Below the pieces are notes generated by a model that did not search any database, was not told the origin of the DNA, and was given only the letters and a program-made list of their open reading frames with translations. Below, piece by piece: positions 22,169-63,910 of a DNA stretch of 64,000 nt; within the stretch, counting starts at the first letter, position 1; each line of letters begins with the position of its first letter. This DNA is from a virus, in IMG/VR virus record IMGVR_UViG_3300048591_000147, positions 1-64,000 of that record; one strand, written 5' to 3'. The translations under genes were made by a program, and so were the position numbers.

Positions 22169-22197
22169 TTGACAGCAAGAATAATACGCAGTAGAAT
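22169..22197 (+). promoter_or_regulatory. Sigma70-type promoter TTGACA-N17-TAGAAT
   Basis: Exact -35 hexamer, 17-nt spacer, -10 TAGAAT. Lies inside repeat unit 1. Confidence 0.5.
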
Positions 22198-23102: not shown

Positions 23103-23157
23103 CAGTTTTGTGTCCCCACATAAATAGATAAAGACTATTTAATGTGGGAACATAAGC

Positions 23158-31029: not shown

Positions 31030-31288
31030 AATTATAACAACAGAAAATCTTGATGAAGTTACGGCTCAGGAAGTTTTTGATTATGTCACAGGTAAGGTTA
31101 TAGAACAGGGTAAGCCTTCTATAGATTTAGAACGTGATACATGCGTGTATAATGACGGCAAATTACGGTGTGCTGCCGGTCATCTTATCCCAAGTTCAGT
31201 GAATACCAAGAAATGGGACTCTCATATGTATACATGGCTTCAACTTATTGAACAGGATCTAGTACCTGACAATCATTGTGATCTGTAA
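31007..31288 (+). pseudogene. 'KCAAGHLIPD'-family copy 3, truncated at 93 aa (frameshift or premature stop)
   Basis: The conserved N-terminal 2/3 is present. The ORF stops at 'DNHCDL*' where the paralogs continue ~40 aa. A +1 frame stays open to ~31444. Confidence 0.4.
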
Positions 31289-32355: not shown

Positions 32356-32627
32356 GTATGTCAATGCGTGTTGTGGGATTAATCCCAGTAGATGGTAGAT
32401 GGCGAGCAATGAAGGCTGTTTGGGATTCTTGTCTACAATTAAAAATCGAACCACCAGTTGAAGTTGTAAATTTTTTTGAGGGGGAATACCCCGAAGAAGA
32501 AGAGTCCACAGTCACATCATTGGATTATGTCAGAAAATATAATTCTGAGATGCGCGAGGGTCTAGAAGTAGACTTAAAGCATGTGCCAAAAGATGTACAG
32601 ACGATCAGATTCTATTGCTCATGGTAA
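32352..32627 (+). CDS. Hypothetical protein (91 aa)
   Basis: ORF. Confidence 0.4.
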   Translation: MSMSMRVVGLIPVDGRWRAMKAVWDSCLQLKIEPPVEVVNFFEGEYPEEEESTVTSLDYVRKYNSEMREGLEVDLKHVPKDVQTIRFYCSW

Positions 32628-32634
32628 AACAATT

Positions 32635-33021
32635 ATGAATATAACAACAAAAAACTTACACGAATACACAGAGCAGCAAATTTTTGATTATGTGGTAGAT
32701 AAACTATTTACTCAAAATAGAGCTAGTATTAATGAAGATGATCATTGCCAATATCGTGGTGAGAACGGTATTAAATGTGCTGCCGGTCATTTAATAGCAG
32801 ATGAGGATTATGATCGCTCGTTTGAAGGTGCTATCTGGAGTGAATTGGTTGATAATGGTGATGTACCAAAGGAACATTTCAATTTGATTGGAAAATTACA
32901 ACAGATGCATGATTCTGTTGCATTTAACAATAGTGGGTGGTTCGCTAGCATGTTGGATTACGCTGCTGACGAATTGGCTTCAGAACTACATCTGAAATAT
33001 ACCAGAAAAAATTTCAGTTGA
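32635..33021 (+). CDS. 'KCAAGHLIPD'-family protein, copy 4 (128 aa)
   Basis: 'MNITTKNLHEYTEQQIFDYVVDK' aligns with the copy 1-3 N-termini. 'IKCAAGHLIADED'. Confidence 0.55.
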   Translation: MNITTKNLHEYTEQQIFDYVVDKLFTQNRASINEDDHCQYRGENGIKCAAGHLIADEDYDRSFEGAIWSELVDNGDVPKEHFNLIGKLQQMHDSVAFNNSGWFASMLDYAADELASELHLKYTRKNFS

Positions 33022-33325: not shown

Positions 33326-33396
33326 GCGGGTATGGTATAGTGGTTGTGCCGTAGCCTTCCAAGCTTCAGACGCGGTTTCGATTACCGCTACCCGCT
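33326..33396 (+). tRNA. tRNA-like gene (perfect acceptor gcgggta/tacccgc and T arm; anticodon arm not resolvable)
   Basis: 71 nt. T arm gcggt-ttcgatt-accgc. Confidence 0.3.
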
Positions 33397-33437: not shown

Positions 33438-34313
33438 ATGAAAGTTTATACCGTATATAAAACCACAAACATCGTAAATAACAAATATTATATCGGCGTA
33501 CATAAGACTGCCAATCCAAATGATGATTATCTTGGTTCTGGCACCGTCTTCAAGTTAGCAATCAAAAAATACGGAAAACAAAACTTCAAAAAAGAAGTTT
33601 TGTTTGTATTTGATGATTTAAAAGACGCATATGAAAAAGAATATGAATTAGTTAATGAAGCATTTGTAAAATGTGAAGATAATTATAACTTGCACATTGG
33701 TGGGTCTGGTGGATTAGCTTTTGAATACATCAACAATGATGTTGAATTTAGAAAAGCAAAGAATAGAAAAGCCCAAGCCGCCATGATAGCTACTGGATAT
33801 TATAAAACACCAGAACATAAAGCTAAAATGTCTGAGTTAAGGAAACAAGAATATAAAGAAGGTAAAAGAGTAGTTAATCCAGAATTTCCAAATGCTTTTA
33901 AAGGAAAGAAACATTCTGAAGAAACTTTAAGAAAAATGAGTGAGTCATCGAAAGGTGTAACTGCGGGGGAGAAAAATTCGCAGTTTGGCACTAGATGGTG
34001 TAATGATGGCGTGAATAATATCAAAATATCCAAGGGTGGGGAAATTCCAGAAGGCTACCACTTGGGTAAAGTTAAACTGGCTAAAGAGCAGCGCAAGCCG
34101 CGTATAGTAAAGTCACAAAAGAAACATGATAATTATGATTTTGGTGCACCAAGAAGAAAAGCTACAATAGAAGATATTAAAATTGCATTATTAAAACATG
34201 ATAAAAACATAAACGATGCGATGGTTAGTTTAGGATATAAAGCGAATAGTTCAGGCAACTCTAGATATAGATTTGAAAAGGTGTTAAAAGCACTTGACAT
34301 CAGCACTAAATAG
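33438..34313 (+). CDS. GIY-YIG homing endonuclease (Seg-like) with a C-terminal DNA-binding extension
   Basis: 'KVYTVYKTTNIVNNKYYIGVHKT' ... 'YNLHIGGSGG'. Confidence 0.7.
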   Translation: MKVYTVYKTTNIVNNKYYIGVHKTANPNDDYLGSGTVFKLAIKKYGKQNFKKEVLFVFDDLKDAYEKEYELVNEAFVKCEDNYNLHIGGSGGLAFEYINNDVEFRKAKNRKAQAAMIATGYYKTPEHKAKMSELRKQEYKEGKRVVNPEFPNAFKGKKHSEETLRKMSESSKGVTAGEKNSQFGTRWCNDGVNNIKISKGGEIPEGYHLGKVKLAKEQRKPRIVKSQKKHDNYDFGAPRRKATIEDIKIALLKHDKNINDAMVSLGYKANSSGNSRYRFEKVLKALDISTK

Positions 34314-34336
34314 AAGTATCATAGCAACATATCAAT

Positions 34337-34423
34337 TGGATCGTCACCCAGTGGACGAAGGTAGCGGGCTTTTAACCCGATTGCGAAAGCACAACGTGGG
34401 TTCGAATCCCACCGATCCAACCA
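34337..34423 (+). tRNA. Type-II-like tRNA gene (anticodon loop cuuuuaa; identity uncertain), copy 1
   Basis: Perfect acceptor tggatcg/cgatcca, T arm gtggg-ttcgaat-cccac, CCA encoded. Anticodon stem cggg/cccg. 15-nt variable arm. Confidence 0.5.
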
Positions 34424-34450
34424 TTTTATCCCTCCAAAAATAAAGCCGCC

Positions 34451-35085: not shown

Positions 35086-35361
35086 ATGTTTTTCTTATCA
35101 GCGTTTTTGATATTCTTGACTGTAGTGTTTTTTATAGCGACTCTGAACTCGTACAAATACGATCTTGTCTATATGATATTAACAGTCGTCTTGCTAATAT
35201 CAAGTCTGATGGCTCTAGACATCGCTATGACAGAGCGGTCGTGCACAGTAACGTGGAATATGTCAAATACACCATCACAGTATACAATTCTAACGGGTTG
35301 TATGATTAAAGTAGATGGTAAATGGATTCCTGCTAGAAATTACAGGGCATTCACAGATTAA
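35086..35361 (+). CDS. 2-TM membrane protein with C-terminal 'KVDGKWIPARNY' domain, paralog of 35687..35977
   Basis: Two TM helices. The C-terminus aligns with 'KVNGVWMPDKHY'. Confidence 0.5.
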   Translation: MFFLSAFLIFLTVVFFIATLNSYKYDLVYMILTVVLLISSLMALDIAMTERSCTVTWNMSNTPSQYTILTGCMIKVDGKWIPARNYRAFTD

Positions 35362-35366
35362 TTTAA

Positions 35367-35479
35367 TGGATCGTCACCCAGTGGACGAAGGTAGCGGGCT
35401 CTTAAAATACTTTTACGAGAGTATTTTGAAACCCGATTGCGAAAGCACAACGTGGGTTCGAATCCCACCGATCCAACCA
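35367..35479 (+). tRNA. Copy 2 of the 34337 tRNA-like gene, carrying a 31-nt hairpin insertion in the anticodon loop
   Basis: Identical to copy 1 except that 'ctcttaaaatacttttacgagagtattttgaaa' replaces 'cttttaa'. The insert forms a 7-bp hairpin aaaatac/gtatttt. Confidence 0.45.
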
Positions 35480-35494
35480 ACTTACGAGTGATTT

Positions 35495-35686: not shown

Positions 35687-35977
35687 ATGTTAATCTTGGG
35701 TTTAATTTGTATCATCGTTGGTGGTTATTTATTTCTATATAACGTTAATAACGAGTATAATAGCAGCATTCTCCCAGAGGTAATGGGCATAATTATGGTA
35801 TTTCTTGGAATGCTTTTTACCACTATTGGTGCTGATAAACAGCGCTGTTATGATAAATGGGAAGAGAGTAATATCGAATTTAAATACCAAGGTATGTGTA
35901 AAGTGAAAGTTAATGGTGTCTGGATGCCTGACAAACACTATCACGTATATGATAACAACCAGATTGAGGCAAAGTAA
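35687..35977 (+). CDS. 2-TM membrane protein, paralog of 35086..35361
   Basis: See 35086. Confidence 0.5.
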   Translation: MLILGLICIIVGGYLFLYNVNNEYNSSILPEVMGIIMVFLGMLFTTIGADKQRCYDKWEESNIEFKYQGMCKVKVNGVWMPDKHYHVYDNNQIEAK

Positions 35978-39584: not shown

Positions 39585-39929
39585 ATGGAACTTTTCAACA
39601 CAGTATTTACGGATGTATCATCCATTGCATTCTGGATGTATTGGACATCCGTAGTCCTATGCTTATACCATGCAGCAACACACTGGGCGTATTATTACAA
39701 AACGGATTTGGAACGATGTTACAGTTCTAACTATAGACCACGCTTGACCGTTGGATCAATCGTCGGAAAGACATTCGTGGCATTGATTCCTTTCGTTAAT
39801 AGTATATTAGCGGTGTTTGTAACCCTTGACCTCATATCTCTTGTGACGGCTAGATTAGATAGAGTATGGTCTTATGGTCTTATAAAAAAGAAACAACCAA
39901 TTACGAAGGACGCAGCACCGAATGCTTAA
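39585..39929 (+). CDS. Membrane protein (114 aa)
   Basis: Two hydrophobic segments. Confidence 0.4.
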   Translation: MELFNTVFTDVSSIAFWMYWTSVVLCLYHAATHWAYYYKTDLERCYSSNYRPRLTVGSIVGKTFVALIPFVNSILAVFVTLDLISLVTARLDRVWSYGLIKKKQPITKDAAPNA

Positions 39930-41079: not shown

Positions 41080-41547
41080 ATGAACACAGTAAAAACGTCC
41101 ACAGTAAGGACCACTAAGGAATTATCAGTTATACAGCAGTATTTTGGAGATAAGATAGTTTCTGAAACATATCGTTATGATAACAAAACTCATAATGATG
41201 TTGGTCCAGCATTTCGTGGTTGGCATCCTAATGGTACTATTTCTCGTGAAGAATATTATCAATACGGAGTTAAAAATCGTGAGGGCGGTCCAGCTATTAC
41301 ACACTATAATGAGGATGGGTCAGTAATTCTCCAATCTTACTATAAAGATAATATGCTACATCGTCTGGACGGTCCCGCATTTGTTCGCTGGTATTCTGAT
41401 TCAGGTGAACTCGCACTCAAGGAATTCTATATTAATGGTAGGGAAATTTCTGAAGAAGATCTTCATAAAAGAAATGCCGTAAAACCATTAGAAGGAAAGA
41501 CGATGGTGATTGATGGTGTTGAATATAAGTTGGTGAGGGTTGATTAG
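41080..41547 (+). CDS. MORN-variant repeat protein (YwqK-like repeats)
   Basis: Repeated 'GPA.R.W..NG....E.YY..G..H(R)..GPA' units. Paralogous repeats occur in 63293..63910(-). Confidence 0.5.
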   Translation: MNTVKTSTVRTTKELSVIQQYFGDKIVSETYRYDNKTHNDVGPAFRGWHPNGTISREEYYQYGVKNREGGPAITHYNEDGSVILQSYYKDNMLHRLDGPAFVRWYSDSGELALKEFYINGREISEEDLHKRNAVKPLEGKTMVIDGVEYKLVRVD

Positions 41548-47364: not shown

Positions 47365-47439
47365 AAACATGTTGCAGATTCTTTGAGTGTGTGATACCAT
47401 ATATACAAGATGTAGGAAATAAAAATTACGGGACTGTCT

Positions 47440-47513
47440 TCTAACTGGCGAAGAATCCTCACTGTCGATGAGTATAATGTGGGTTCGAATCCCATCAGTC
47501 CCGCATAAATAGA
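47440..47513 (+). tRNA. tRNA-Asp (anticodon GTC)
   Basis: Perfect acceptor gggactg/cagtccc. D stem ttct/agaa. Anticodon stem ctca/tgag with loop ctGTCga. T arm gtggg-ttcgaat-cccat. Confidence 0.6.
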
Positions 47514-47536: not shown

Positions 47537-48187
47537 ATGTTTTATACGGTTTATAAAATAACAAACATAAAAAATAATATGGTTTATGTAGGTGTCCATA
47601 AAACACTTGATTTAAATGATAATTATTTTGGGTCTGGACAGTATCTACGTGCCGCTATCAAAAAGTATGGAATATCAATCTTCACAAAGAAGATATTAGC
47701 AGTATTTGATACTCCCGAAGAAATGTTTAACATGGAGCGAAAAATAGTAACTGAGGAATTTGTAAAATCTAAAAATACGTATAACCTTGGAATAGGTGGG
47801 TCTGGTGGTAATAGAGTAGGTAAAGATCATCATACCCATTCGCTCTCCAATATGACAAGCATGTCAGAAAAAGCAAAGGCATCTTGGAATGATGTGACTT
47901 CAAGGGGGGAGAGGGTGAAAAAGTTAGCTACCAGAAATAGTAAGCTACATAAAATTGGCATACTTAAAAGACCTGATTGGACAGGCAGAAAACATAAAGA
48001 AAGTACAAAGCAGAAAATTTCTGAGAAAAATTCTAAAAATAGAACTGGTGAAGCAAACCATAGATTTGGTAAATGCTGGATAACAGATGGTACGATAAAT
48101 CGATCCGTATGTAAGGAAGCGGAATTACCAGATGGTTGGAGATATGGTAGAGTAATGAAAACGAACATAGTTGACAACACTAAATAA
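47537..48187 (+). CDS. GIY-YIG homing endonuclease (Seg-like)
   Basis: 'MFYTVYKITNIKNNMVYVGVHKT' ... 'YNLGIGGSGG'. Confidence 0.7.
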   Translation: MFYTVYKITNIKNNMVYVGVHKTLDLNDNYFGSGQYLRAAIKKYGISIFTKKILAVFDTPEEMFNMERKIVTEEFVKSKNTYNLGIGGSGGNRVGKDHHTHSLSNMTSMSEKAKASWNDVTSRGERVKKLATRNSKLHKIGILKRPDWTGRKHKESTKQKISEKNSKNRTGEANHRFGKCWITDGTINRSVCKEAELPDGWRYGRVMKTNIVDNTK

Positions 48188-53794: not shown

Positions 53795-54004
53795 ATGCGT
53801 AAGCTAGAAGGTGAGTGGACAATAGAATATGAAAAGCCGGTTAGGCAATATCATAGTCGGGCATTACGAATGATGGTTAAACAGTTAAAACAAGAGATAG
53901 CCGATGATGCTAAAGTAATTGTTGACAAATATGCGACTGAAGCCGTCTTAAAACATCTGATTAAAGAGCTTCGTAAACAGACGAAAGAGAGATTTAAGAA
54001 ATGA
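53795..54004 (+). CDS. Hypothetical protein (69 aa)
   Basis: ORF. Confidence 0.4.
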   Translation: MRKLEGEWTIEYEKPVRQYHSRALRMMVKQLKQEIADDAKVIVDKYATEAVLKHLIKELRKQTKERFKK

Positions 54005-54333
54005 ATTATACAGTGAATGGCCCATTTATTATATTGGATGGAGTTAATAGGGGAGGTCCGAGCTATAAGCTTGATGCCAATTTTGATTTAGATATATCTT
54101 GGGAGAAAACTTCGAAGCGTAGATTGAATACCAATAGAATCCTACCAAAGAGTAAAAGAAATCATAATATTATTCAACCTTGGCAGTCATCATATAAGCG
54201 GTGGAATAGAAATCCCCATATTATCGAAAGACTTCTCGTTAAGAAATGCGCTAAAGAGATATGTGATGAAATTGATAAGGAGCTTATGGCAGATTTAGTA
54301 AAATTATTTAGAGGGCCATTATTTAATGTATAA
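54001..54333 (+). CDS. Hypothetical basic protein (110 aa)
   Basis: ORF. Confidence 0.4.
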   Translation: MNYTVNGPFIILDGVNRGGPSYKLDANFDLDISWEKTSKRRLNTNRILPKSKRNHNIIQPWQSSYKRWNRNPHIIERLLVKKCAKEICDEIDKELMADLVKLFRGPLFNV

Positions 54334-54730
54334 CATAGCAAACTTGACATATAACTGCAATTTCAAGATTGATTACACGAACTATAAGGGCGAACGTTCA
54401 GTAAGAACTATTCGCCCAATTTGCATATGGTTTGGATCAACAGAATATCACAAAGAGTCGCAATTTCTTTTAAACGCTTTGGATGTCGATAAAAATGAAG
54501 AGAGGGATTTCGCGATGAAGGATATCCACGATCTAGAGCTTGATAACCAAGACGGTTATTACAATCCACTATTGTTACAAGAAGATTACATTTTTCCATA
54601 TCCTTCCAATAGTGGGGCGACAGTTGAAGGTGATAATGTAATTATACTAGACAGAGAAGAATTGCTCAAACAGTTGACAAGGACTCTGCTACCAGATACT
54701 ATAGAGCCATCAAATGAGAAACAAGAATAA
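54326..54730 (+). CDS. Possible WYL-domain protein
   Basis: 'Y.NYKGERSVRTIRPICIWFGSTEYH..SQFLLNALDVD...ERDFAMKDI' resembles the WYL core. Weak. Confidence 0.3.
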   Translation: MYNIANLTYNCNFKIDYTNYKGERSVRTIRPICIWFGSTEYHKESQFLLNALDVDKNEERDFAMKDIHDLELDNQDGYYNPLLLQEDYIFPYPSNSGATVEGDNVIILDREELLKQLTRTLLPDTIEPSNEKQE

Positions 54731-55077: not shown

Positions 55078-55488
55078 ATGATGTCTGCAAATGGTTTAAC
55101 AAAATTGATGGAAGAATGTGGTGAACTAGTTCAGATATGCGCGAAGAAAATTGCCTATTATGATAGTGATGATCACCCGGATGGTAAAGGTTCCATGAGA
55201 ACCAGAATGACTGAAGAGATGGGTGATGTGCTTGCAGCAATAGCATTCGTTGTAAGAAAATTTGAGATCAATCAAGACACTCTTGACGCCAGAAAAAAGA
55301 AAAAGCTAGAACTATTTCTAGAATGGGATAACCGTGATTCCAACATTGCTGACGGTTGTGACTTTAATAATGTCAATTTGAAGAAAGTCCTTAAGACGTT
55401 GGAGTTCGAACGAGACAACATAAAACATATGAGTGTGATCAACGCAGAGCTTCGTAAGCGTATCAAAGAGCTTGAGACTGCTAGTTGA
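55078..55488 (+). CDS. mazG: MazG-like nucleoside triphosphate pyrophosphohydrolase
   Basis: 'EECGELVQI' and 'EEMGDVLAAIAF' EExxE/D motifs. ATG chosen downstream of the tRNA-like gene (the ORF-track GTG start lies inside the tRNA). Confidence 0.6.
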   Translation: MMSANGLTKLMEECGELVQICAKKIAYYDSDDHPDGKGSMRTRMTEEMGDVLAAIAFVVRKFEINQDTLDARKKKKLELFLEWDNRDSNIADGCDFNNVNLKKVLKTLEFERDNIKHMSVINAELRKRIKELETAS

Positions 55489-55539
55489 CAACCGCCCTGT
55501 ACGTCTCTATCATGTGTCAACACTTACGGAATCTTAGAA

Positions 55540-55794
55540 ATGTTTACATATTTTTTAATTTGGTACGTCGCACCAGCAATCTTACTATCGATTATCCATA
55601 ATTATGATGTTTTCATAAAAAAGGCAACGAATTATTCAATCAGAGAATACATTATAGGCGTAATTTGGTGTCTAGTACCAGTAGCAAATATTGTCTTTTT
55701 TCTTGGATGTATAATTTCGGATATTCATGCATTCCTCACGAATGGTAGATTTTCAGATTGGTTAGATAAATCTATTAATAACTATAGGAAGTAA
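55540..55794 (+). CDS. 2-TM small membrane protein, tandem family member 1 (84 aa)
   Basis: TM1, 'NY' loop, TM2 with 'PV.N(I/V)', C-terminal 'WLDK'. Five contiguous paralogs. Confidence 0.55.
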   Translation: MFTYFLIWYVAPAILLSIIHNYDVFIKKATNYSIREYIIGVIWCLVPVANIVFFLGCIISDIHAFLTNGRFSDWLDKSINNYRK

Positions 55795-55795
55795 G

Positions 55796-56065
55796 ATGAT
55801 GCTATTTTTTACTTTAATATACGTTATACCAACTGTGTTTATGCTCTGTTTCAACCACTATGAGATCGTATATAGCAGTTGTAGGGCTTACACGAATGCA
55901 GAATACTTGTTCGGTGTACTAATCTCTTTCGTACCAATCATCAATGCTGTAATGATGTTGTCATTACTGTCTATGTATGTAGAAAATTGGAATTTACTAA
56001 GTCGATTTACCAATAAAATAACCAAGTGGTTGGATACTCCAGTTAAAAAAGGAAAGTTGTCATGA
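55796..56065 (+). CDS. 2-TM small membrane protein, member 2 (89 aa)
   Basis: As above. 'WLDTPVKK'. Confidence 0.55.
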   Translation: MMLFFTLIYVIPTVFMLCFNHYEIVYSSCRAYTNAEYLFGVLISFVPIINAVMMLSLLSMYVENWNLLSRFTNKITKWLDTPVKKGKLS

Positions 56066-56325
56066 GTTCAATTGCAATATTTGTAGTAGTTTACCTAATA
56101 CCTTGCGTGATTATTTTATCAATCATGAATTATAGCGTTTTCATTAACAAAGAAGAAGTAACAATCGGCGGGTATATCGGTTTCACAGTATTAGCGCTGT
56201 TCCCAGTAATGAACGTTATTGTGTGTATGGCATTCATAATAATGTATATCGATGAATTTGCCATGAACTGTAAAGCAATAGACAGATTTAAAGCATGGCT
56301 GGATAAGCCGCTACTAAAACGATAG
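56062..56325 (+). CDS. 2-TM small membrane protein, member 3 (87 aa)
   Basis: As above. 'WLDKPLLKR'. Confidence 0.55.
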   Translation: MSSIAIFVVVYLIPCVIILSIMNYSVFINKEEVTIGGYIGFTVLALFPVMNVIVCMAFIIMYIDEFAMNCKAIDRFKAWLDKPLLKR

Positions 56326-56337
56326 GAATAATGTGTT

Positions 56338-56586
56338 ATGATGATGATTGTAGTATTTGGATATATTTTACCACTAATAGTTACACTGGCTTGTCTAAAC
56401 TATTACACATTCGTGTATAAGAAAGAGATCATTACGATAACCCAATACGCTTGTGTGACAGTTGCCGCACTGGCGCCCGTGCTGAATTTGATGGCCGCGA
56501 TTATAGGTACGGGGTTCATAGTTGAAGAGACAACATTGTTTGACGGTATTAAAAAAGTTTTAAGCAAACCAATCAACAGGGATTAA
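56338..56586 (+). CDS. 2-TM small membrane protein, member 4 (82 aa)
   Basis: As above. 'LSKPINRD'. Confidence 0.55.
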   Translation: MMMIVVFGYILPLIVTLACLNYYTFVYKKEIITITQYACVTVAALAPVLNLMAAIIGTGFIVEETTLFDGIKKVLSKPINRD

Positions 56587-56587
56587 T

Positions 56588-56851
56588 ATGATTTTACTTT
56601 CGATATGGCTAGTTCCAGCGATCATTAGCTTGATCTGCCTCTTCATTGCGATAGTCATTCAAAAGATGACAGGATTTAATAGGTTTAATGTAATCGTATT
56701 AGCTTTACTGTCATTTGCGCCTGTAATGAATATGTTTTTAGCTGCAATTGGAATGATTCAAGTTTTGATATCTAGTAGATTCTATCCAAAAATTGAAGAA
56801 TGGAGTGATTCGGCATCTAGTTGGTTGACTAAACCAATAAACAAGGATTGA
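56588..56851 (+). CDS. 2-TM small membrane protein, member 5 (87 aa)
   Basis: As above. 'WLTKPINKD'. Confidence 0.55.
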   Translation: MILLSIWLVPAIISLICLFIAIVIQKMTGFNRFNVIVLALLSFAPVMNMFLAAIGMIQVLISSRFYPKIEEWSDSASSWLTKPINKD

Positions 56852-56852
56852 C

Positions 56853-57023
56853 ATGGACGCAGAAGAGATTAAAGAATTGATAAGAGATTATATTAAAGAT
56901 AGTCTCAGCATAGAAATTAGAAGATCTTACGATTATGGGTTCGGTGGTGATACTGATGTGCGTCTGGAAGTCAAGCTATTTTTAGGTAGCGATCAGATAT
57001 CATCTGATTATATTACATTGTAG
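56853..57023 (+). CDS. Small acidic protein (56 aa), paralog of 57034..57189
   Basis: 'MDAEEIKELIRDYIKDSL' vs 'MDKEELKEYLRDNLKVRV'. Below the ORF-track cutoff. Confidence 0.35.
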   Translation: MDAEEIKELIRDYIKDSLSIEIRRSYDYGFGGDTDVRLEVKLFLGSDQISSDYITL

Positions 57024-57033
57024 TGAGAATACT

Positions 57034-57189
57034 ATGGACAAAGAAGAACTTAAAGAGTATCTTAGGGATAACCTTAAGGTGCGCGTAAAGGCCGAATACG
57101 GTGACTATGATGGCACACCGTCATCATTCTCTGTTAGACTCTTCTTAGAAGATGAAGAGATTTCCTACGATAATGATTCTCTACGCTAA
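57034..57189 (+). CDS. Small acidic protein (51 aa), paralog of 56853..57023
   Basis: See above. Confidence 0.35.
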   Translation: MDKEELKEYLRDNLKVRVKAEYGDYDGTPSSFSVRLFLEDEEISYDNDSLR

Positions 57190-57213
57190 TAATTCAATTA
57201 AGGATTAAGGTAA

Positions 57214-58206
57214 ATGGGCTGCTATAACAACACATGCGGAATCTCACAATTTCCCATCATTGCCGGTGATAAGACTGTAAACTTTATCATTGTATCTACA
57301 TCTTGGAAGACTGATCCTCGTCCTTCCTATATGAATACCGCTTGGAACGTAATTCCAATTCCATTTTATGGAGAGTATGACGATTATGGTTGGCAAAAAG
57401 ATGATAAGAAACAACAACTTAAATACAAGTTTTTGTCAAACTTTTATAAAGGTCAGTTAGTCTGCATGGACGCTGATAGGGCTAGCCGTGATAAGATCGA
57501 AGACCCGTTCAAAGATAATAAATCACTGGGTAGTTCCATCCATGGTAATGTTTGGCATATTAATAATCCATGGCATGAGCAAGACATCGCGAATGAGTCA
57601 CCCACCAGAACAATTTCCAATTTTATGGTGAGCCGTACAGTCCTTGATACCTTAACTGAATCGGTCGTGGAAACGTACCCAACAGAGAAAGTATATACAA
57701 AGGCTGATTTCATCGAAACGTTGGATGAATTTTTTAAGCTGTCTGCAAATAATCCAAACGAACGTAGGTTTCAAGAGCTTTCCGAAAAGAAGAAAGTGCG
57801 TGAACTAGATGAAACAGAAAACAAAGAGTTTTATGAATTGATAGTCGAAAAGCTTCACGGTTTAAAGAAACACAATTTAGTACAAGAATTTCTTACTAAA
57901 AAATATGGTGAGAGAAGTTATTTCAATACGATGGGTGGGCTGTTGCGTTGGGTGACTGAACGTTCCGGTTCAGAGTGGCGCGATGAAATCAGTATGACTG
58001 AATTGTTAGAGGCCAATGTATTATCTTCGGAAGATATTGTTAATATGTTCTTGATGAAGAGTTCCATGGATACTCTTCGTAAGAGTTTTCATCCGATGTC
58101 TGGCTATGGTTCGCAGGAAGGATTTGGTGCTGCACATAGCAAGTTGATTGTAGCCATGCAAAAGATGATAGACTATGATAACGTCAGGTATGCGGAGTAC
58201 GAGTGA
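57214..58206 (+). CDS. Hypothetical protein (330 aa)
   Basis: ORF with SD 'aaggattaaggtaaatg'. Confidence 0.5.
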   Translation: MGCYNNTCGISQFPIIAGDKTVNFIIVSTSWKTDPRPSYMNTAWNVIPIPFYGEYDDYGWQKDDKKQQLKYKFLSNFYKGQLVCMDADRASRDKIEDPFKDNKSLGSSIHGNVWHINNPWHEQDIANESPTRTISNFMVSRTVLDTLTESVVETYPTEKVYTKADFIETLDEFFKLSANNPNERRFQELSEKKKVRELDETENKEFYELIVEKLHGLKKHNLVQEFLTKKYGERSYFNTMGGLLRWVTERSGSEWRDEISMTELLEANVLSSEDIVNMFLMKSSMDTLRKSFHPMSGYGSQEGFGAAHSKLIVAMQKMIDYDNVRYAEYE

Positions 58207-58300
58207 ACATATTTGTAGTAGATTACAATCTAAATTTTTGCATGAACTCACCACATAAAGCATAAATACTCTTGAAGTTGTTCAAAATCAGGAGCATAAT

Positions 58301-58885
58301 ATGAACACATGTAAAGAATGCGGAAAAGAAAGAAGAGAAGGTCGTCAATTTTGTTCTGTTGTATGTTCGAATACACATAAAGGTAGAATAATATTTAAAA
58401 TTAATGATGAAAAAGGTATACACAAAACATGTGTGACTTGCAACAAGTCTAAATGTCTCAACGCTTTTTCTTTCAACATACGAAATAATTTTGAATCTGG
58501 GAAAAAAGACCAGTGTAAACGTTGTGGTGCTAATATCCGAGAAACTAAGAGAAGAGATAGAACTTGGAAAGATGATGCGACACTAATAATGTTGTCCAAT
58601 TCTAGACAACGCGCAAAAAATGCGGGTATGGAGAACACATTAAAAAGATCTGACATCCAAATCCCAGATCTTTGTCCAGTATTTAATGTCCCCCTAATGC
58701 GTGAAGATAAAAGTACATGGCTGTATTCCCCATCGATAGACAGAATAGATAATACAAAAGGGTATACACCCGATAACATAGTAATTGTTAGTAGAAGAGC
58801 GAATATTTTAAAGAAAGACGCTACAATTGACGAATTAAGAATGATGCACGAATTTTACCAAAAATTATGGAGGGATAAGAATTAA
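58301..58885 (+). CDS. HNH endonuclease (HNH_3 type) with an N-terminal zinc finger
   Basis: 'CKECGK...CSVVC'. 'SIDRIDNTKGYTPDNIVIVSRRAN' HNH_3 signature. Confidence 0.6.
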   Translation: MNTCKECGKERREGRQFCSVVCSNTHKGRIIFKINDEKGIHKTCVTCNKSKCLNAFSFNIRNNFESGKKDQCKRCGANIRETKRRDRTWKDDATLIMLSNSRQRAKNAGMENTLKRSDIQIPDLCPVFNVPLMREDKSTWLYSPSIDRIDNTKGYTPDNIVIVSRRANILKKDATIDELRMMHEFYQKLWRDKN

Positions 58886-58946
58886 CATATTCATTGTAAA
58901 CTATAATCCAATTTTAGCTGCGCAACAACTAAATGATAAACATGTC

Positions 58947-59345
58947 GTGCGCATGCCGTTAGAAGGTTCCCAAATGCTATCTACTGTAATGCATCGCTAT
59001 GGTGTTGTGTGTACTTACAAGCCAACGCATCGTAATCATCCCTGTACGCTCTGGGCTGGCAACAGTAAGCAGAATTTCATCTGGCTATGGATTCATACCA
59101 TGGAACTGTTTAAAGAGTATACGCGACGTTACGGAAAGATTCATAAGAGCGAACAGTATATGAAGGAATACACATGCCCTGTGGAGATTCCTAATATTGG
59201 TCTAACTCCGTTTGCGCAGGCTATGCCTGACCAGTATAGACATGAAGATGCGGTCACCGCATATCGTAGTTATTATATTGGTGATAAATCTGGTTTTTCA
59301 ACGTGGAAGCTTGGTAACACTCCAGAGTGGTTCTTGACACAGTAA
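58947..59345 (+). CDS. Hypothetical protein (132 aa)
   Basis: ORF. Confidence 0.4.
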   Translation: MRMPLEGSQMLSTVMHRYGVVCTYKPTHRNHPCTLWAGNSKQNFIWLWIHTMELFKEYTRRYGKIHKSEQYMKEYTCPVEIPNIGLTPFAQAMPDQYRHEDAVTAYRSYYIGDKSGFSTWKLGNTPEWFLTQ

Positions 59346-59389
59346 CCAAATTATCCTATGATTGAGACAAACTCCAAAAGGAATTCACT

Positions 59390-59635
59390 ATGTTTTTCGT
59401 TATATATTTAATACTCGTTATCTGTAGCTTGTTTGGCATTTACAGATTAGTATATTTTAGTGACACCACCTACTTTAATTGGATAGGTTTAATTGCATCT
59501 ATATTTCTCAGTTTCGTTCCGTTTGTTAACTTGGCCATAGCAATTGCTTTTTGCGGAATTGCCATTGGAGAGACAGACCGCTGGAAGCGAATAGCGGAAT
59601 TTCTTGAGTCGTCTGTTAAACTTAAAAAGGATTGA
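59390..59635 (+). CDS. 2-TM small membrane protein, dispersed family member (81 aa)
   Basis: '...FVPFVNLAIAIAF...' and C-terminal '...LKKD', as in 55540..56851. Confidence 0.5.
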   Translation: MFFVIYLILVICSLFGIYRLVYFSDTTYFNWIGLIASIFLSFVPFVNLAIAIAFCGIAIGETDRWKRIAEFLESSVKLKKD

Positions 59636-59847
59636 TCATGAAATTGTCAGTTTCAGAACAGAAAACTAGAGAATTAATACAACCTATGTTGGATTTATTT
59701 GGTGGTGCGGATGGTGGTGTTGGTTTCGTAAGGATGCGTGCATTTATAAATGACATTATCGAGAAGACCGATAAGTCAGCTCTAGAATCACACTTCTTAT
59801 CTGACTTGGAAAGAATGTCAAGATTATGTGAAGGTATGATGAAATGA
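59632..59847 (+). CDS. Hypothetical protein (71 aa)
   Basis: ORF. Confidence 0.4.
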   Translation: MIMKLSVSEQKTRELIQPMLDLFGGADGGVGFVRMRAFINDIIEKTDKSALESHFLSDLERMSRLCEGMMK

Positions 59848-60191
59848 AGGATGATGTCTGGACTTTAAATAATGCTGCGCTGTTTTGCACGCTGCTAGAG
59901 GCTATTGCACCTTCATATGGTTTTCATGTAGCATTGACTGGTGGTTGTCTATACAAAGACGGTCCCCGAAAGGACTGTGATGTTATTTTGTATAGAATTA
60001 GAACAGATGGGCAGCCATCAACTACTCCCGTAGAAGAGCTATTAAAAGCCTTCAAAACTAAGATCGGAATTTCCAGACTGACGGATCATGGATTCGTTGT
60101 CAAGGCCGAATACGAAGGTAGACAGGTAGATTTTTTGATTCCTGAAAGCGAGCCTACGGAAGTTGATTATGCTGGTAACCACGGTGGATGA
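59844..60191 (+). CDS. Possible minimal nucleotidyltransferase (MNT-like)
   Basis: 'FHVALTGGCLYKDGPRKDCDVILY' fits GGx9-13DxD. Weak. Confidence 0.3.
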   Translation: MKDDVWTLNNAALFCTLLEAIAPSYGFHVALTGGCLYKDGPRKDCDVILYRIRTDGQPSTTPVEELLKAFKTKIGISRLTDHGFVVKAEYEGRQVDFLIPESEPTEVDYAGNHGG

Positions 60192-60351
60192 TTTATGTTA
60201 GATTACTATCCAGAATTTTCATGGCGTAAGGCGTCAACTAGACAAAGATTAAGACATTGTGTAAGTCAAGCGTCTTGGTTGTGCCTGCTACCAGTATTAT
60301 ACGTAATTGGAATGACGCAAAAGAAACGTAAACAACGAAGGACACAGAACA

Positions 60352-60702
60352 ATGACTGACGAAATTACTAAAGAATTGGGCAAGATCAAAAACGTGAAGT
60401 TTGGGCATGTTGGCTATAATGACGCAGGGCTGGGAATCCAATTTGAGCTAGGTGGTGAATCATGGGGTGTCTGCGACACCAAATGGACTTGGGATTACAA
60501 TCTAATTAAGCGTGATTCGCATACGCGATGGACAGAAGAAGAACGAGAAAAGCTTCATATTGAAATGCTTAAATTTATCTCTAACCTTCTGAGAGATGCC
60601 AAGGTGGACAGTATCGAAAAATTAAAAGGCAAACCAATTGAAGTGACATTCAGGGGCTTCAATACGCTAGATAGCTGGCGAATTCTTTCGGAAGTGCTAT
60701 GA
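60352..60702 (+). CDS. Hypothetical protein (116 aa)
   Basis: ORF. Confidence 0.45.
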   Translation: MTDEITKELGKIKNVKFGHVGYNDAGLGIQFELGGESWGVCDTKWTWDYNLIKRDSHTRWTEEEREKLHIEMLKFISNLLRDAKVDSIEKLKGKPIEVTFRGFNTLDSWRILSEVL

Positions 60703-60860
60703 AAGCCAGTGAACTAATTGATCGTCTAAAGCTCATGATAGAAGAGCAGGGTGATTACGAGGTTTTCTATTCAGATTACTGGCGTGGTGCTGAAGTTGTA
60801 CATTTTATCAAGATTGAATCTAATATCAGAAATAACGACAAAGTTATTCTATTATCTTAA
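60699..60860 (+). CDS. Small hypothetical protein (53 aa)
   Basis: ATGA overlap with the upstream stop. Confidence 0.3.
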   Translation: MKASELIDRLKLMIEEQGDYEVFYSDYWRGAEVVHFIKIESNIRNNDKVILLS

Positions 60861-60871
60861 AGGAAAGGTAT

Positions 60872-61090
60872 ATGTTTCTATTTTATGTTCTACCAATGAT
60901 TATCGTTCTACTGTCATTGTATTATTTCACATTCGTAGTTGATCCTGTTAAGATTCACAATGGGATGGTGGTGCTTCTATTTGCATGTGCTTTTATGCCG
61001 TTAATGAATATCTTGGTTGTGGGTGGACTGATTATCTTTTGGCTTATAGAAAGTGATTGGTCTAATAGCACGTTCCGAAAGCCATGGTAA
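60872..61090 (+). CDS. 2-TM small membrane protein, dispersed family member (72 aa)
   Basis: 'FMPLMNILVVGGL'. Confidence 0.45.
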   Translation: MFLFYVLPMIIVLLSLYYFTFVVDPVKIHNGMVVLLFACAFMPLMNILVVGGLIIFWLIESDWSNSTFRKPW

Positions 61091-61269
61091 GCGTCTGGGC
61101 GACATCATACAAATGCGCTGCATGCAACGATCAACTGATCAATATAACACAACTACAATATTCAGACCGCCCCGTAGTCAAATCGTTGAACCCGTGTAGC
61201 AACTGTGATAGAATACAGCAGATAGATAAGGACGTTCAAAATGATCTGGGACTCACCGCGCAAGAGTAA
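61084..61269 (+). CDS. Small Cys-containing protein (61 aa)
   Basis: 'CAACND...CSNCD'. Confidence 0.35.
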   Translation: MVSVWATSYKCAACNDQLINITQLQYSDRPVVKSLNPCSNCDRIQQIDKDVQNDLGLTAQE

Positions 61270-61459
61270 TGGCGATATATTTTATAAAACACATTTCTGC
61301 ATCATGCCATTTCCATATAAAGATAAAACATATTGGTTCGAAAAGTTGTACCTGAAAATGGAATACAATAGAACCTGTGGACCGGATGGCGAATGTGGTG
61401 ACAATCACAAAATTCTGGAATTGCGATTATCCCCCGAAGAAGGTGTAATTTACGAATGA
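61241..61459 (+). CDS. 'F..P...YW(F)E'-family mini-protein, member 5 (72 aa)
   Basis: 'FCIMPFPYKDKTYWFEKL'. Confidence 0.45.
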   Translation: MIWDSPRKSNGDIFYKTHFCIMPFPYKDKTYWFEKLYLKMEYNRTCGPDGECGDNHKILELRLSPEEGVIYE

Positions 61460-61656
61460 GTATGACATTTGCGCTCTTACTTGCTCTACATTTCTTATAC
61501 CACCTAATTGCTACTATTACAGTGGTGTACTCACTGTATCACTCTAATACCGTACACAAACGCGCGTGGTGGAAGTTAGCCGCAGCCTTTGCGTGGACTG
61601 CACTATCTGTGTATCTTGCAGTAGAAGTGTTTCTAGGCGCACACAATCATGTCTAG
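61456..61656 (+). CDS. Small 2-TM membrane protein (66 aa)
   Basis: Two hydrophobic helices. Confidence 0.4.
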   Translation: MSMTFALLLALHFLYHLIATITVVYSLYHSNTVHKRAWWKLAAAFAWTALSVYLAVEVFLGAHNHV

Positions 61657-61846
61657 AAAGAACAAAGTCTATAAAGAAAAAGCTAAGAAATCACTAGCAG
61701 ATCATGCGGATATCAATTGTGAAAAATGCGGTGCCGTGGGGTCGGAACATTCTTGCCCATATTCGGAAGAAATGAGTGGTACTGACGAATATTTTGCGTG
61801 TACCTGTTGCAGGGCATGTACCAGACAATGTGCAGAGGATATTTAA
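61649..61846 (+). CDS. Small Cys-rich (putative zinc-binding) protein (65 aa)
   Basis: 'CEKCG...CPY...CTCCRACTRQC'. Confidence 0.4.
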   Translation: MSRKNKVYKEKAKKSLADHADINCEKCGAVGSEHSCPYSEEMSGTDEYFACTCCRACTRQCAEDI

Positions 61847-61847
61847 A

Positions 61848-62072
61848 ATGAAAGTCAAAAACGAAAAGACGATTACGCTATCTGCGAAACAGTTAGAAAT
61901 GATATTGAATAATATGTTTGTGGCTGAATTTGCTCCTAGCACGAAGTTACAAATCTCATTTTTGCTAGAGCCCTATGGCGATGATGAAGACCGATTCAGC
62001 AGATACAGGCTTGACCGTGTCACTGTATCTGGCGTCGAAGAACTCGAATGGAATAAAAATCATGAGCACTAA
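61848..62072 (+). CDS. Hypothetical protein (74 aa)
   Basis: ATG after the upstream stop (internal start of ORF 61776..62072). Confidence 0.4.
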   Translation: MKVKNEKTITLSAKQLEMILNNMFVAEFAPSTKLQISFLLEPYGDDEDRFSRYRLDRVTVSGVEELEWNKNHEH

Positions 62073-62253
62073 ATTCAAATATCTAATCAGAGATTATTCA
62101 AGAGTTAACTATAATAGTATGCTTATTGAACGCAACATCAATATCCTCGGAGATGATGGATGGGAATTAGTAAGTGTTAGATGGGAAGGCGATCTCACGC
62201 AGTGTTTCTTTAAGAAAACTATAAATATTATAGCAAACACTGGACCGAGATGA
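62062..62253 (+). CDS. Hypothetical protein (63 aa)
   Basis: Internal start of ORF 61975..62253. Confidence 0.35.
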   Translation: MSTKFKYLIRDYSRVNYNSMLIERNINILGDDGWELVSVRWEGDLTQCFFKKTINIIANTGPR

Positions 62254-62561
62254 AACGACCATTAAAATTGTCAATTAAATTAGATCTACCTTGCGGATGT
62301 GTGGAAGAACACACCTTTGATGAGGGAGAGATAGTATATTTTATTGAGCGCGAAGATAAATTATTAGATCAAGAACTATTTGGTTTCTGGATCAACCAGA
62401 AGATCAACAAACACCTGTGCGTTGCATCTACCGAAGATGTGGAAAGATATTTATTATTGGTTGTGAACGAAGCTTATAGAGACAGAACTGACTATGAAGA
62501 AGATGTAGTCAGATTTTTAGCCAACATGTACGCGAAGAAAGAGCGTAAGAAAATTGTATGA
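62250..62561 (+). CDS. Hypothetical protein (103 aa)
   Basis: ORF. Confidence 0.45.
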   Translation: MKRPLKLSIKLDLPCGCVEEHTFDEGEIVYFIEREDKLLDQELFGFWINQKINKHLCVASTEDVERYLLLVVNEAYRDRTDYEEDVVRFLANMYAKKERKKIV

Positions 62562-62734
62562 CTTTATTTTACATTCTCCCACTAATAGTATTAATCACAA
62601 TCGCCTGCTCAATTGACCATAGTTCTTTTGATGGTATAATTTTATTTGTTATAGCATTTGTCCCGATCATAAACATCCTTGTTCTGGTCTTCCTACTTTA
62701 TTTGTTTATAACTTCCTACAGAAATCCTAATTAA
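62558..62734 (+). CDS. 2-TM small membrane protein, short family member (58 aa, below the ORF-track cutoff)
   Basis: ATGA overlap. 'MTLFYILPLIVLITIACSIDHSSFDGIILFVIAFVPIINILVLVFLLYLFI'. Confidence 0.4.
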   Translation: MTLFYILPLIVLITIACSIDHSSFDGIILFVIAFVPIINILVLVFLLYLFITSYRNPN

Positions 62735-63292: not shown

Positions 63293-63910
63293 TTATGGAC
63301 TTATTTCGTCTAGAATAACCTGAGTGCCACGAATCGAAGCGATTCTGTATTTCTTAAAATCGATGGTATAAATCTTGTCGTGGAGAAAGGTGTCGTATTC
63401 GTGAGGAAGGTATTTTTTCAAAAATTTGGCTTTTGACATCCTAACACCTTCAACATAATACAAATATTGTGGTTTCTTCTGATCTGGATACTGAGTTATG
63501 GAAGCTGGGCCAGATATATTATGCTGTTTATGTCTAATCCACCACTCCCGATGAACGATTGAACCATCTTCAGCATAATAAATCACAGCAGGACCGTTTT
63601 CTCTATGTAATTTTCCTGCACGGTGCCAACGCTCAACGTCTGGCTGACCATTTCGATGATATGTTATCATTGCGGGTAAATCATTGCCCCTATGAAGAGC
63701 ACCATCAATGTAATATTCTTCTATTATCTTAAAGTTGGGTGTTGTGTGTACACCAAATCGTTGGACGGCTGGACCTGTTTCACAATGAAATATTTCACGC
63801 TCCGCATCTTTATATTTGTTTGCTTCAGCTAATCGCATTGGGTTATCGTAATAAATGTGCCCAACGAAACAACCATCAATAAATCCAAGGTCTTTGTAAA
63901 TTCTAGCCAT
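63293..63910 (-). CDS. MORN-variant repeat protein (second copy)
   Basis: 'GPA...' repeats as in 41080..41547. Confidence 0.5.
   Translation of the reverse strand: MARIYKDLGFIDGCFVGHIYYDNPMRLAEANKYKDAEREIFHCETGPAVQRFGVHTTPNFKIIEEYYIDGALHRGNDLPAMITYHRNGQPDVERWHRAGKLHRENGPAVIYYAEDGSIVHREWWIRHKQHNISGPASITQYPDQKKPQYLYYVEGVRMSKAKFLKKYLPHEYDTFLHDKIYTIDFKKYRIASIRGTQVILDEISP

What the first reader, a model, noticed from the sequence alone, without database searches (positions are those of the whole stretch)
55540..62734. Expanded family of ~85-aa two-TM membrane proteins: five tandem copies plus at least three dispersed copies
Paralogs share TM1, a short 'NY' loop, TM2 with a conserved P-(V/I)-x-N motif, and a charged tail (often WLDKP). 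Tandem members lie at 55540, 55796, 56062, 56338 and 56588, with ATGA or 1-nt spacing. Dispersed members lie at 59390, 60872 and 62558. 35086 and 35687 are related 2-TM proteins with a different C-terminal domain. Size and topology match phage superinfection-immunity or injection-blocking inner-membrane proteins (for example T4 Imm, 83 aa, 2 TM). An eight-member diversifying array would be a novel arrangement: either an expanded immunity repertoire against relatives, or a membrane-targeted anti-defence or holin-antiholin family.
Basis: partly seen in the sequence, partly recalled or inferred. Interest (0 to 1): 0.75.

Follow-up and report, generated by a model that had tools for sequence, protein, structure and literature searches.

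The report
Expanded phage small membrane-protein family
An uncultured 315-kb phage carries eight (perhaps nine) old, diverged copies of a previously undescribed ~80-residue membrane protein placed behind early-type promoters; the family is real and occurs in many large phages, but its function is still unknown.

Summary
Eight ORFs at the stated coordinates form one protein family. An HMM built only from the five tandem copies recovers the three dispersed ones, each beating all 500 layout-preserving shuffles. 35086 and 35687 are a separate pair. 39585-39929 may be a divergent ninth member. The family is not confined to this genome: a profile search found 126 small (68-97 aa) cluster representatives sharing Y-x-x-P in helix 1, a near-invariant P-x-x-N in helix 2 and a C-terminal W-L-x-K-P-x-K-K. 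No Pfam, PHROGs, NCBIfam, PADLOC or PDB family matches. It is not a T4 Imm relative (hhalign probability 1.6%; no PF14373 hit). Other large phages carry 1-3 copies, often in tandem, so eight to nine is the largest set seen. Close relatives have 5, 2 or 0 tandem copies at this site. The copies are old (20-38% identity between siblings, 40-75% to counterparts elsewhere) and under purifying selection (omega 0.15-0.23), so "diversifying" is not supported. Near-consensus sigma-70 promoters precede the array and 59390, and no lysis genes are nearby, which argues against holins. Function is unproven. My best guess (about 0.3) is an early inner-membrane protein acting in superinfection exclusion or membrane protection.

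The parts
55485..55513 (+). Near-consensus sigma-70-type promoter (TTGACA-17-TATCAT, 11 of 12) 27 nt upstream of the first tandem gene
   Evidence: It is one of 12 such sites on the + strand between 21.9 and 62.6 kb, against about 1.4 expected from shuffles. All point with the genes.
55540..55794 (+). Family member 1 (84 aa), tandem array
   Evidence: ORF. Two hydrophobic helices. Family HMM E 7e-24. Ortholog in L001 at 6062-6307, 74% identity, omega 0.19. Not called by the JGI gene caller.
55796..56065 (+). Family member 2 (89 aa), tandem array
   Evidence: E 1.5e-23. Ortholog in L001 at 6323-6562, 48% identity, omega 0.23. AF2 model pLDDT 78.2.
56062..56325 (+). Family member 3 (87 aa), tandem array; its start overlaps the stop of member 2 (ATGA)
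   Evidence: E 1.4e-24. AF2 model pLDDT 80.9. Closest counterpart is P0020, 40% identity.
56338..56586 (+). Family member 4 (82 aa), tandem array
   Evidence: E 4.4e-23. Closest counterpart is P0011, 43% identity.
56588..56851 (+). Family member 5 (87 aa), last of the tandem array
   Evidence: E 9.8e-19.
59334..59362 (+). Near-consensus sigma-70-type promoter (TTGACA-17-TATGAT, 11 of 12) 27 nt upstream of member 59390
59390..59635 (+). Dispersed family member (81 aa)
   Evidence: Tandem-only HMM E 6e-9, 0 of 500 shuffles reach its score. Orthologs P0005 (60%) and P0007 (56%). Not called by the JGI gene caller.
60872..61090 (+). Dispersed family member (72 aa), variant tail ESDWSN..F[RK]KPW
   Evidence: Tandem-only HMM E 2e-8, 0 of 500 shuffles. 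Orthologs in L001 (75%, omega 0.15) and L014 (47%, omega 0.24). Kept in all three relatives.
62558..62734 (+). Dispersed family member (58 aa), short form without the W-L-x-K-P tail
   Evidence: Tandem-only HMM E 2e-3, 0 of 500 shuffles. Orthologs in L001 (54%) and L014 (56%), omega 0.22-0.24. Kept in all three relatives.
39585..39929 (+). Possible ninth, divergent member (114 aa; longer N-terminus and loop; LIPFVN motif)
   Evidence: Broad family HMM E 5.9e-5 among 1436 ORFs. Borderline with the narrow HMM, where 10 of 500 shuffles reach its score.

Best explanation
The genes encode a previously undescribed family of small (58-97 aa) phage membrane proteins.

Shown here:
- The proteins have two hydrophobic helices.
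- Helix 2 is broken at a near-invariant P-x-x-N.
- Helix 1 carries Y-x-x-P.
- A conserved T-x-G leads into helix 2.
- Most members end in W-L-x-K-P-x-K-K.
- The copies are old paralog lineages under purifying selection.
- Copy number at this site differs between close relatives (5, 2 or 0).

Inferred:
- The genes are read early in infection by the host RNA polymerase from near-consensus sigma-70 promoters.
- The proteins insert into the host inner membrane.

Proposed mechanism (unproven, about 0.3):
- The conserved intramembrane core (Pro kink plus buried Asn) drives self-association or docking onto a membrane partner.
- The loop and tail specific to each lineage give each paralog its own target.
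- The proteins alter the inner membrane soon after infection so that later invaders cannot deliver DNA, or so that membrane-acting attacks are blunted. This is a functional analogue of T4 Imm or P22 SieA, not a relative of either.

The confidence given is for the functional claim. That this is a real new early membrane-protein family is about 0.9.
For: - Real family: (HMM and shuffle controls).
- Breadth: 128 profile hits at E <= 1e-3, of which 126 are 68-97 aa and match end to end.
- Signature: P-x-x-N in 122 of 128 small family sequences listed, always near residue 45. P in 99 of 99 and N in 98 of 99 aligned sequences; Y or W in 93 of 99.
- Coding and function: ortholog omega 0.15-0.23. Purine-rich, Shine-Dalgarno-like stretches upstream of most starts (my reading of the sequences printed).
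- Early expression: 12 near-consensus sigma-70 promoters on the + strand against about 1.4 expected. One lies 27 nt before the array and one 27 nt before 59390.
- Membrane location: two hydrophobic segments in every member. AF2 models show long helices, pLDDT 78-81.
- Accessory, fast-changing character: array of 5, 2 or 0 in three relatives, with a mosaic junction just upstream. dN is 3-7 times that of most adjacent genes.
- Multi-copy elsewhere: L012 has 3, L009 has 3, L013 has 2, and tandem pairs occur in L016, L025 and L033.
- Precedent for small inner-membrane exclusion proteins: the T4 imm annotation and P22 SieA (PMC10883804).
Against: - No homology to any exclusion protein.
- No experiment, no cultured phage and no known host.
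- The conserved core is shared by phages that seem to infect different phyla. One subgroup is closest to Flavobacterium phages. That fits a generic membrane or host target better than recognition of particular rival phages.
- Ortholog differences are not concentrated in the exposed loop or tail, and omega is well below 1, so there is no arms-race signature.
- Topology is unresolved. Both AF2 models pair the Thr before helix 2 with the C-terminal Pro motif. That is impossible in a plain two-pass hairpin.
- In other lineages the gene abuts a Metallophos phosphoesterase. This hints at some other, unknown functional link.
Confidence: 0.3

Rival explanations
1. Host-takeover or anti-defence factors. 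Each paralog binds and neutralises a different host inner-membrane protein through helix-helix contacts mediated by the buried Asn and the Pro kink. Targets could be membrane-anchored abortive-infection effectors, proteases or transporters.
For: - Early-type promoters, and a location in a block of small early accessory genes.
- Old, separately maintained paralog lineages fit one target per lineage.
- The core is conserved across phages of apparently different hosts.
- Gene content varies between relatives.
Against: - No match to PADLOC or any anti-defence family.
- No target is known.
- There is no co-variation with any host system that could be examined here.
Confidence: 0.25
2. Viroporin-like channel. 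The hairpins oligomerise, and the invariant Asn forms a polar ring in a small pore that changes ion balance or membrane potential early in infection. Different paralogs might form mixed assemblies.
For: - Invariant polar Asn and helix-breaking Pro inside the second hydrophobic helix.
- An amphipathic C-terminal helix predicted to fold back along helix 2.
- Size and layout like two-helix viral channel proteins (my own knowledge: HCV p7, pinholin S21).
Against: - No oligomer model could be made.
- Early depolarisation would harm the phage's own replication.
Confidence: 0.12
3. Lysis control: holins, pinholins or antiholins of class II type (two helices, charged C-terminus).
For: - Two hydrophobic helices and a basic C-terminal end.
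- In the T4-size subgroup a glucosaminidase gene lies about 2.3 kb upstream of the family gene.
Against: - Eight to nine copies.
- Early-type host promoters directly upstream.
- No endolysin or spanin in the neighbourhood.
- No match to any Pfam or PHROGs holin family across 99 members.
- The related cultured Flavobacterium phage has its own annotated holin elsewhere, and no family member was found in the first 50 kb scanned.
Confidence: 0.08
4. Not real genes: chance hydrophobic ORFs in AT-rich DNA.
For: Gene callers skipped 4 of the 8 in the source contig.
Against: - Orthologs in two relatives with omega 0.15-0.24.
- 126 small related cluster representatives matched end to end.
- 0 of 500 shuffles reach the real scores.
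- Tight operon packing and Shine-Dalgarno-like sequences (my reading of the sequences).
Confidence: 0.01

Closest known systems
T4 Imm (superinfection immunity protein, Pfam PF14373)
   Same: About 83 aa with two hydrophobic helices, an early gene of a large lytic phage and a membrane location. A Y-x-L-P stretch in helix 1 aligns over 13 columns.
   Different: No detectable homology (hhalign probability 1.6%; no PF14373 hit; z about 0 against the family HMM). Imm lacks the P-x-x-N core and the W-L-x-K-P tail. The only imm gene seen in the 16-kb T4 stretch inspected here is a single copy. This family comes in sets of 1-9.
[quoted passage not shown]
   Same: A phage-encoded inner-membrane protein that acts alone at the DNA-entry step. 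It has divergent sequence types, less than 30% identical, with the same predicted helix layout (PMC10883804).
   Different: SieA is 162-164 aa with three predicted helices, is prophage-expressed and is single copy. There is no sequence relationship.
Class II holins and pinholins (for example phage 21 S21; my own knowledge)
   Same: About 70 aa, two helices, a charged C-terminus, and function through oligomerisation in the inner membrane.
   Different: Holins are late genes, usually one or two per genome and often beside the endolysin. Here there are 8-9 copies behind early-type promoters, with no lysis genes nearby and no holin-family match.
Two-helix viroporins (for example HCV p7; my own knowledge)
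   Same: A small helical hairpin with conserved polar residues inside the membrane.
   Different: These are eukaryotic-virus proteins with no sequence or fold match. Channel activity was not tested.

Membership tests
T4 Imm / Pfam PF14373 (Imm_superinfect) | Sequence or profile similarity to PF14373 | tested here: not met
   0 of 99 members hit PF14373, whereas all 16 Imm homologs do. hhalign of the family profile against the Imm profile gives probability 1.6%.
T4 Imm / Pfam PF14373 (Imm_superinfect) | About 80-aa protein with two hydrophobic helices | tested here: met
   Lengths are 58-89 aa with two hydrophobic segments each.
T4 Imm / Pfam PF14373 (Imm_superinfect) | Early expression | tested here: inconclusive
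   Near-consensus sigma-70 promoters lie directly upstream of the array and of 59390, and such sites are about 8-fold enriched on the coding strand. There are no expression data.
T4 Imm / Pfam PF14373 (Imm_superinfect) | Blocks DNA entry of superinfecting phage | not testable with these tools
   This needs an exclusion assay. There is no cultured phage or host.
Class II holin / pinholin | Two helices and a charged C-terminal tail | tested here: met
   Mean K+R is 4.8 in the tail, and every member has two hydrophobic segments.
Class II holin / pinholin | Match to a described holin family | tested here: not met
   No holin family appears in Pfam, PHROGs or NCBIfam for any of the 99 members.
Class II holin / pinholin | Lysis-gene neighbourhood and late expression | tested here: not met
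   The neighbours are a MazG-like gene, a homing endonuclease, a DNA-binding protein gene and genes of unknown function. The promoters upstream are early-type.
P22 SieA | About 160-aa protein with three helices, and sequence similarity | tested here: not met
   Members are 58-89 aa with two helices. SieA features are taken from PMC10883804. No direct alignment with SieA was run. None of the library scans returned a match to any named exclusion family.
New family defined here (P-x-x-N two-helix phage proteins) | P-x-x-N near residue 45 in the second hydrophobic helix, plus an end-to-end match to the family HMM | tested here: met
   All eight window ORFs match. 122 of 128 small database sequences carry the motif. 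39585 is borderline.
New family defined here (P-x-x-N two-helix phage proteins) | C-terminal [WF]-L-x-x-P-[ILV]-x-K motif | tested here: inconclusive
   The motif is present, with substitutions, in members 1-5. It is degenerate in 59390 (FLESS), takes a variant form in 60872 (FRKPW) and is absent in 62558. 51 of 128 database sequences carry the strict motif.

The most novel reading that the evidence does not exclude
The family is a new class of phage membrane effector built on a fixed intramembrane core (Pro kink plus buried Asn) with exchangeable loop and tail. Large phages would keep several old lineages of it as a repertoire, each aimed at a different invader or host membrane system. That would make it a membrane-level counterpart of multi-gene anti-defence sets. 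A related possibility is that the unusual predicted contact between the pre-helix-2 Thr and the C-terminal Pro motif reflects a re-entrant or channel-forming topology not seen before in phage proteins.
Probability: 0.2. Interest if true: 0.75.

Novelty: new variant of a known kind. Interest (0 to 1): 0.5.

Why it matters
Small early membrane proteins are among the least understood phage genes, and very few (T4 Imm, P22 SieA and a handful of others) have a known role. This work defines a family with a sharp signature and at least 126 diverged clusters in public metagenomes. It has no entry in Pfam, PHROGs or NCBIfam and tends to occur in multiple copies. Gene callers often miss its members: 4 of 8 here and 2 of 5 in a relative. 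The family is therefore under-counted in protein databases. If the copies prove to be target-specific exclusion or anti-defence modules, the family would provide a compact, mutable scaffold for studying how phages act at the host membrane. The invariant Pro and Asn give an immediate mutational test.

Tried and rejected
- **Close relatives among sequenced phages.** Megablast of the region and tblastn of a 654-aa window protein found nothing. tblastn of three family members against 50,697 phage records found nothing at E <= 1. Short hydrophobic queries have low power here.
- **Known-family membership.** Pfam, PHROGs, PADLOC, NCBIfam and PDB sequences gave no consistent hit for the 8 window proteins or the 99 aligned members.
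- **T4 Imm homology.** Rejected.
- **35086 and 35687 as relatives of the family.** Rejected.
- **Promoter/stem-loop cassettes as shuffling modules, as in T4-type phages.** The ten strong promoter regions aligned share nothing beyond the two hexamers.
- **A cultured host system through the linked Metallophos gene.** The closest isolates are Flavobacterium phages vB_FspM_immuto. They have no family member at the syntenic site or in the first 50 kb. The remaining 110 kb was not scanned.
- **A Metallophos partner in the window.** None found.
- **Sample origin from accession numbers in the literature.** Nothing found.
- **The metagenome scan.** It returned only a duplicate of L014.


Full report
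**What the window is.** The window is part of a 314,913-bp JGI metagenome contig (3300048590|Ga0498928_0000044). It has about 37% G+C, nine tRNA genes, and long one-directional runs of small ORFs. This is a jumbo phage. It has no close DNA or protein match among 50,697 sequenced phages. From about 16 to 62.7 kb the genes run on the + strand. In that block, near-consensus sigma-70 promoters (TTGACA-16 to 18-TATAAT, at least 11 of 12 positions) occur 12 times on the + strand, against about 1.4 expected and 3 on the other strand. I read this as an early region transcribed by the host polymerase. That is an inference from consensus matches, not from expression data.

**Check of the observation.**
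Each has two strongly hydrophobic segments.
- An HMM built from the five tandem copies alone recovers 59390 (E 6e-9), 60872 (2e-8) and 62558 (2e-3) from 399 window ORFs. Nothing else scores below E 0.08.
- Hydrophobic proteins can match each other through composition alone. I therefore shuffled each candidate within its own hydrophobic and polar segments. None of 500 shuffles reaches the real score for the three dispersed copies (z 5.4-7.4).
- 35086, 35687, two other two-helix ORFs of the window and T4 Imm behave like their own shuffles. So 35086 and 35687 are a separate pair (BLAST E 1e-7 to each other), not relatives of the family.
- A broader HMM points to a possible ninth member at 39585-39929 (E 6e-5). 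It is borderline with the narrow HMM.
- The tandem genes are packed with a 1-nt gap, an ATGA overlap, a 12-nt gap and a 1-nt gap, and they run straight into the next gene.
- One strong promoter sits 27 nt before the first tandem gene, and another sits 27 nt before 59390.

**The family beyond this genome.**
- A word-indexed search of 5.8 billion proteins found only the window's own proteins plus two orthologs.
- A full HMMER profile search of 1.84 billion cluster representatives found 128 hits at E <= 1e-3. Of these, 126 are 68-97 aa and match end to end. The other two are unrelated repeat proteins.
- The signature is sharp:
  - Y or W in 93 of 99 aligned sequences, followed by P three residues on, in helix 1.
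  - A T-[RK]-G-[DE]-[YLF]-[IL] lead-in to helix 2.
  - P in 99 of 99 and N in 98 of 99 in helix 2.
  - A C-terminal [WF]-L-[DN]-K-P-[ILV]-x-K-K.
- Among the 128 small family sequences listed, P-x-x-N is present in 122 under a strict pattern, always near residue 45.
- No Pfam, PHROGs, NCBIfam, PADLOC or PDB-sequence family captures the group. Only scattered single-member noise appears.
- No source gives any member a name other than 'hypothetical protein'.
- Gene callers missed 4 of the 8 copies in the source contig and 2 of 5 in a relative. Protein databases therefore under-count the family.

**Genomic contexts elsewhere.**
- Every context looks like the accessory or early region of a large lytic phage. 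Typical features are runs of small same-strand ORFs, homing endonucleases, a DenV-type Pyr_excise gene, and RNA-repair and NAD-salvage genes.
- Multiple copies are common: three in L012 (two in tandem), three in L009 and two in L013. There are one or two, in tandem when two, in 19 IMG/VR loci from AT-rich contigs of up to 173 kb.
- Eight to nine in one genome is the largest set I saw.
- That AT-rich subgroup is closest to the 160-kb Flavobacterium phages vB_FspM_immuto. Those isolates lack the gene at the syntenic site and in the first 50 kb.
- The window phage, by contrast, uses classical -35/-10 promoters and Shine-Dalgarno-like leaders. The family therefore seems to span phages of different host groups. 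This is an inference.

**Evolution of the array.** Three relatives can be compared.
- The window has five tandem copies between a MazG-like gene and a conserved pair of 56- and 51-aa genes.
- L001 has two, the orthologs of members 1 and 2.
- L014 (the same sequence as L035) has none. It carries unrelated soluble-protein genes there, while keeping the orthologs of 60872 and 62558.
- The genes just upstream (53795-54730) are about 100% identical to L014, and identity then falls to 86%. The array therefore sits at a mosaic junction.
- Siblings in the window are only 20-38% identical. Each is closer to a counterpart in another phage (40-75%). The duplications are old, and the lineages are kept apart.
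- Orthologs diverge faster than most adjacent genes (dN 0.16-0.34 against 0.035-0.10 at similar dS). A few other genes in the region, such as 62250, diverge as fast. The family remains under purifying selection (omega 0.15-0.23; dS is near saturation, so these values are rough).
- Differences are spread over helices, loop and tail (0.40, 0.37, 0.52 and 0.30 per site). This is not the picture of an arms race focused on exposed parts.
- The window has many other paralog families. These include a four-member one, three GIY-YIG endonucleases and several pairs. Duplication is therefore a general habit of this genome, and this family is simply the largest.

**Structure and topology.**
- AF2 with the 99-sequence alignment gives confident models for two paralogs (pLDDT 80.9 and 78.2).
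- Both models show a long first helix, a second helix broken at the Pro and restarting around the Asn, a low-confidence linker, and a short amphipathic C-terminal helix.
- K+R counts are 0.14 at the N-terminus, 2.35 in the loop and 4.82 in the tail. This favours N-in/C-in for a plain hairpin in 81% of members.
- Both models, however, show a single beta-bridge between the conserved Thr before helix 2 and the conserved Pro region of the tail. In a plain hairpin these lie on opposite sides of the membrane.
- Three readings are possible: helix 2 is re-entrant (N-out, loop and tail both inside, which fits the charge counts even better); the tail helix re-enters the membrane in an oligomer; or AF2 simply compacts the chain. 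I could not inspect the coordinates, so this stays unexplained.
- Fold searches gave nothing useful.

**What it most likely does.**
- Shown: a real, conserved, widespread family of small proteins with two hydrophobic helices, occurring in multi-copy sets whose size changes between relatives.
- Inferred: early expression and an inner-membrane location.
- A buried Asn is a classic driver of helix-helix association in membranes, and a Pro kink one turn before it would expose it. That is established biophysics cited from my own knowledge, not tested here. The conserved core is therefore best read as an association module, and the lineage-specific loop and tail as what sets each copy apart.
- Among early functions known for such proteins, blocking entry of later phage DNA is the best documented. 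Examples are T4 Imm (annotation) and P22 SieA (PMC10883804). I rank that first at about 0.3.
- Neutralising host membrane proteins or defence effectors comes next (0.25), then a viroporin-like channel (0.12), then lysis control (0.08).
- Lysis control is disfavoured by the early-type promoters, the copy number, the absence of lysis genes nearby and the absence of any holin-family match.

**Comparison with known families.**
- The family works, at most, like Imm. It is not a member: hhalign probability is 1.6%, with only a 13-column Y-x-x-P stretch aligned, and there is no PF14373 hit.
- It is not SieA-like in size or helix count.

**Novelty.** It is a new family within the known broad kind 'small early phage membrane proteins', with an unusual copy number. 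I rate it a new variant of a known kind, with interest 0.5. The family and its signature are solid and new. The function is open, and there is no cultured system yet.

Noticed in passing
window 23158-23778, 33438-34313, 47537-48187: Three paralogous GIY-YIG / SegE-like homing endonuclease genes (BLAST E 2e-42 within the group). Each lies directly downstream of a tRNA gene: tRNA-Ser 23011-23103, tRNA-Gly 33326-33396 and tRNA-Asp 47430-47504.
   Followed up: partly
window 56853-57023 and 57034-57189: A paralogous pair of small acidic proteins (56 and 51 aa; the 56-aa one matches phrog_6906) immediately after the tandem array. Both are kept in L001, and a single copy is present in L014.
   Followed up: partly
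window 35086-35361 and 35687-35977: A pair of two-helix membrane proteins with a shared Cys-containing C-terminal domain. They are unrelated to the family.
   Followed up: partly
L022 10231-10947; L009 4950-5603; L012 4487-5179; L013 5974-6621: A Metallophos phosphoesterase gene abuts or lies close to the family gene in 19 IMG/VR loci and in three other lineages, although the phosphoesterases are only 23-29% identical. None is present in the window. This may be a functional link or just old synteny.
   Followed up: partly
window 30249-30647, 30637-31029, 31007-31288, 32581-33021: A four-member paralog family (best E 5e-30). The three members scanned have no Pfam match.
   Followed up: no
window 61456-61656: A separate 66-aa two-helix protein that is 88-91% identical in both relatives, far more conserved than the family members around it.
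   Followed up: no
window 21951-22020 and 22169-22240: Two adjacent near-consensus promoters, each followed by a shared element of about 25 nt, ATTGGTCGAACnATAAAAGGTTA. This may be a duplicated leader or small RNA.
   Followed up: no
window 34294-34443 and 35315-35491: Repeated sequence overlapping tRNA-Lys (34337-34423). A second tRNA-like copy near 35360-35450 may exist that ARAGORN did not call.
   Followed up: no
L001 3518-4729: A TnpB / IS605 OrfB element is inserted in the relative phage, right next to its family member at 3218-3454.
   Followed up: no
window 53795-54730 versus L014 8751-9686: Three genes are 98.5-100% identical in protein to the relative L014 (dS 0.06-0.11). The next genes drop to 86% identity and dS about 0.95. 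This marks a recent recombination junction just upstream of the array.
   Followed up: partly
window 55540, 59390, 60872, 62558; L001 6062, 8919: Public gene calls skipped 4 of 8 family members in the source contig and 2 of 5 in L001. Protein-database counts for this family are therefore lower bounds.
   Followed up: yes
window 41080-41547 and 63293-63910 (-): Two paralogs (BLAST E 4e-13). The first has a weak MORN-variant repeat hit, below Pfam's cut-off. The second lies on the opposite strand at the end of the early block and had no Pfam hit.
   Followed up: no
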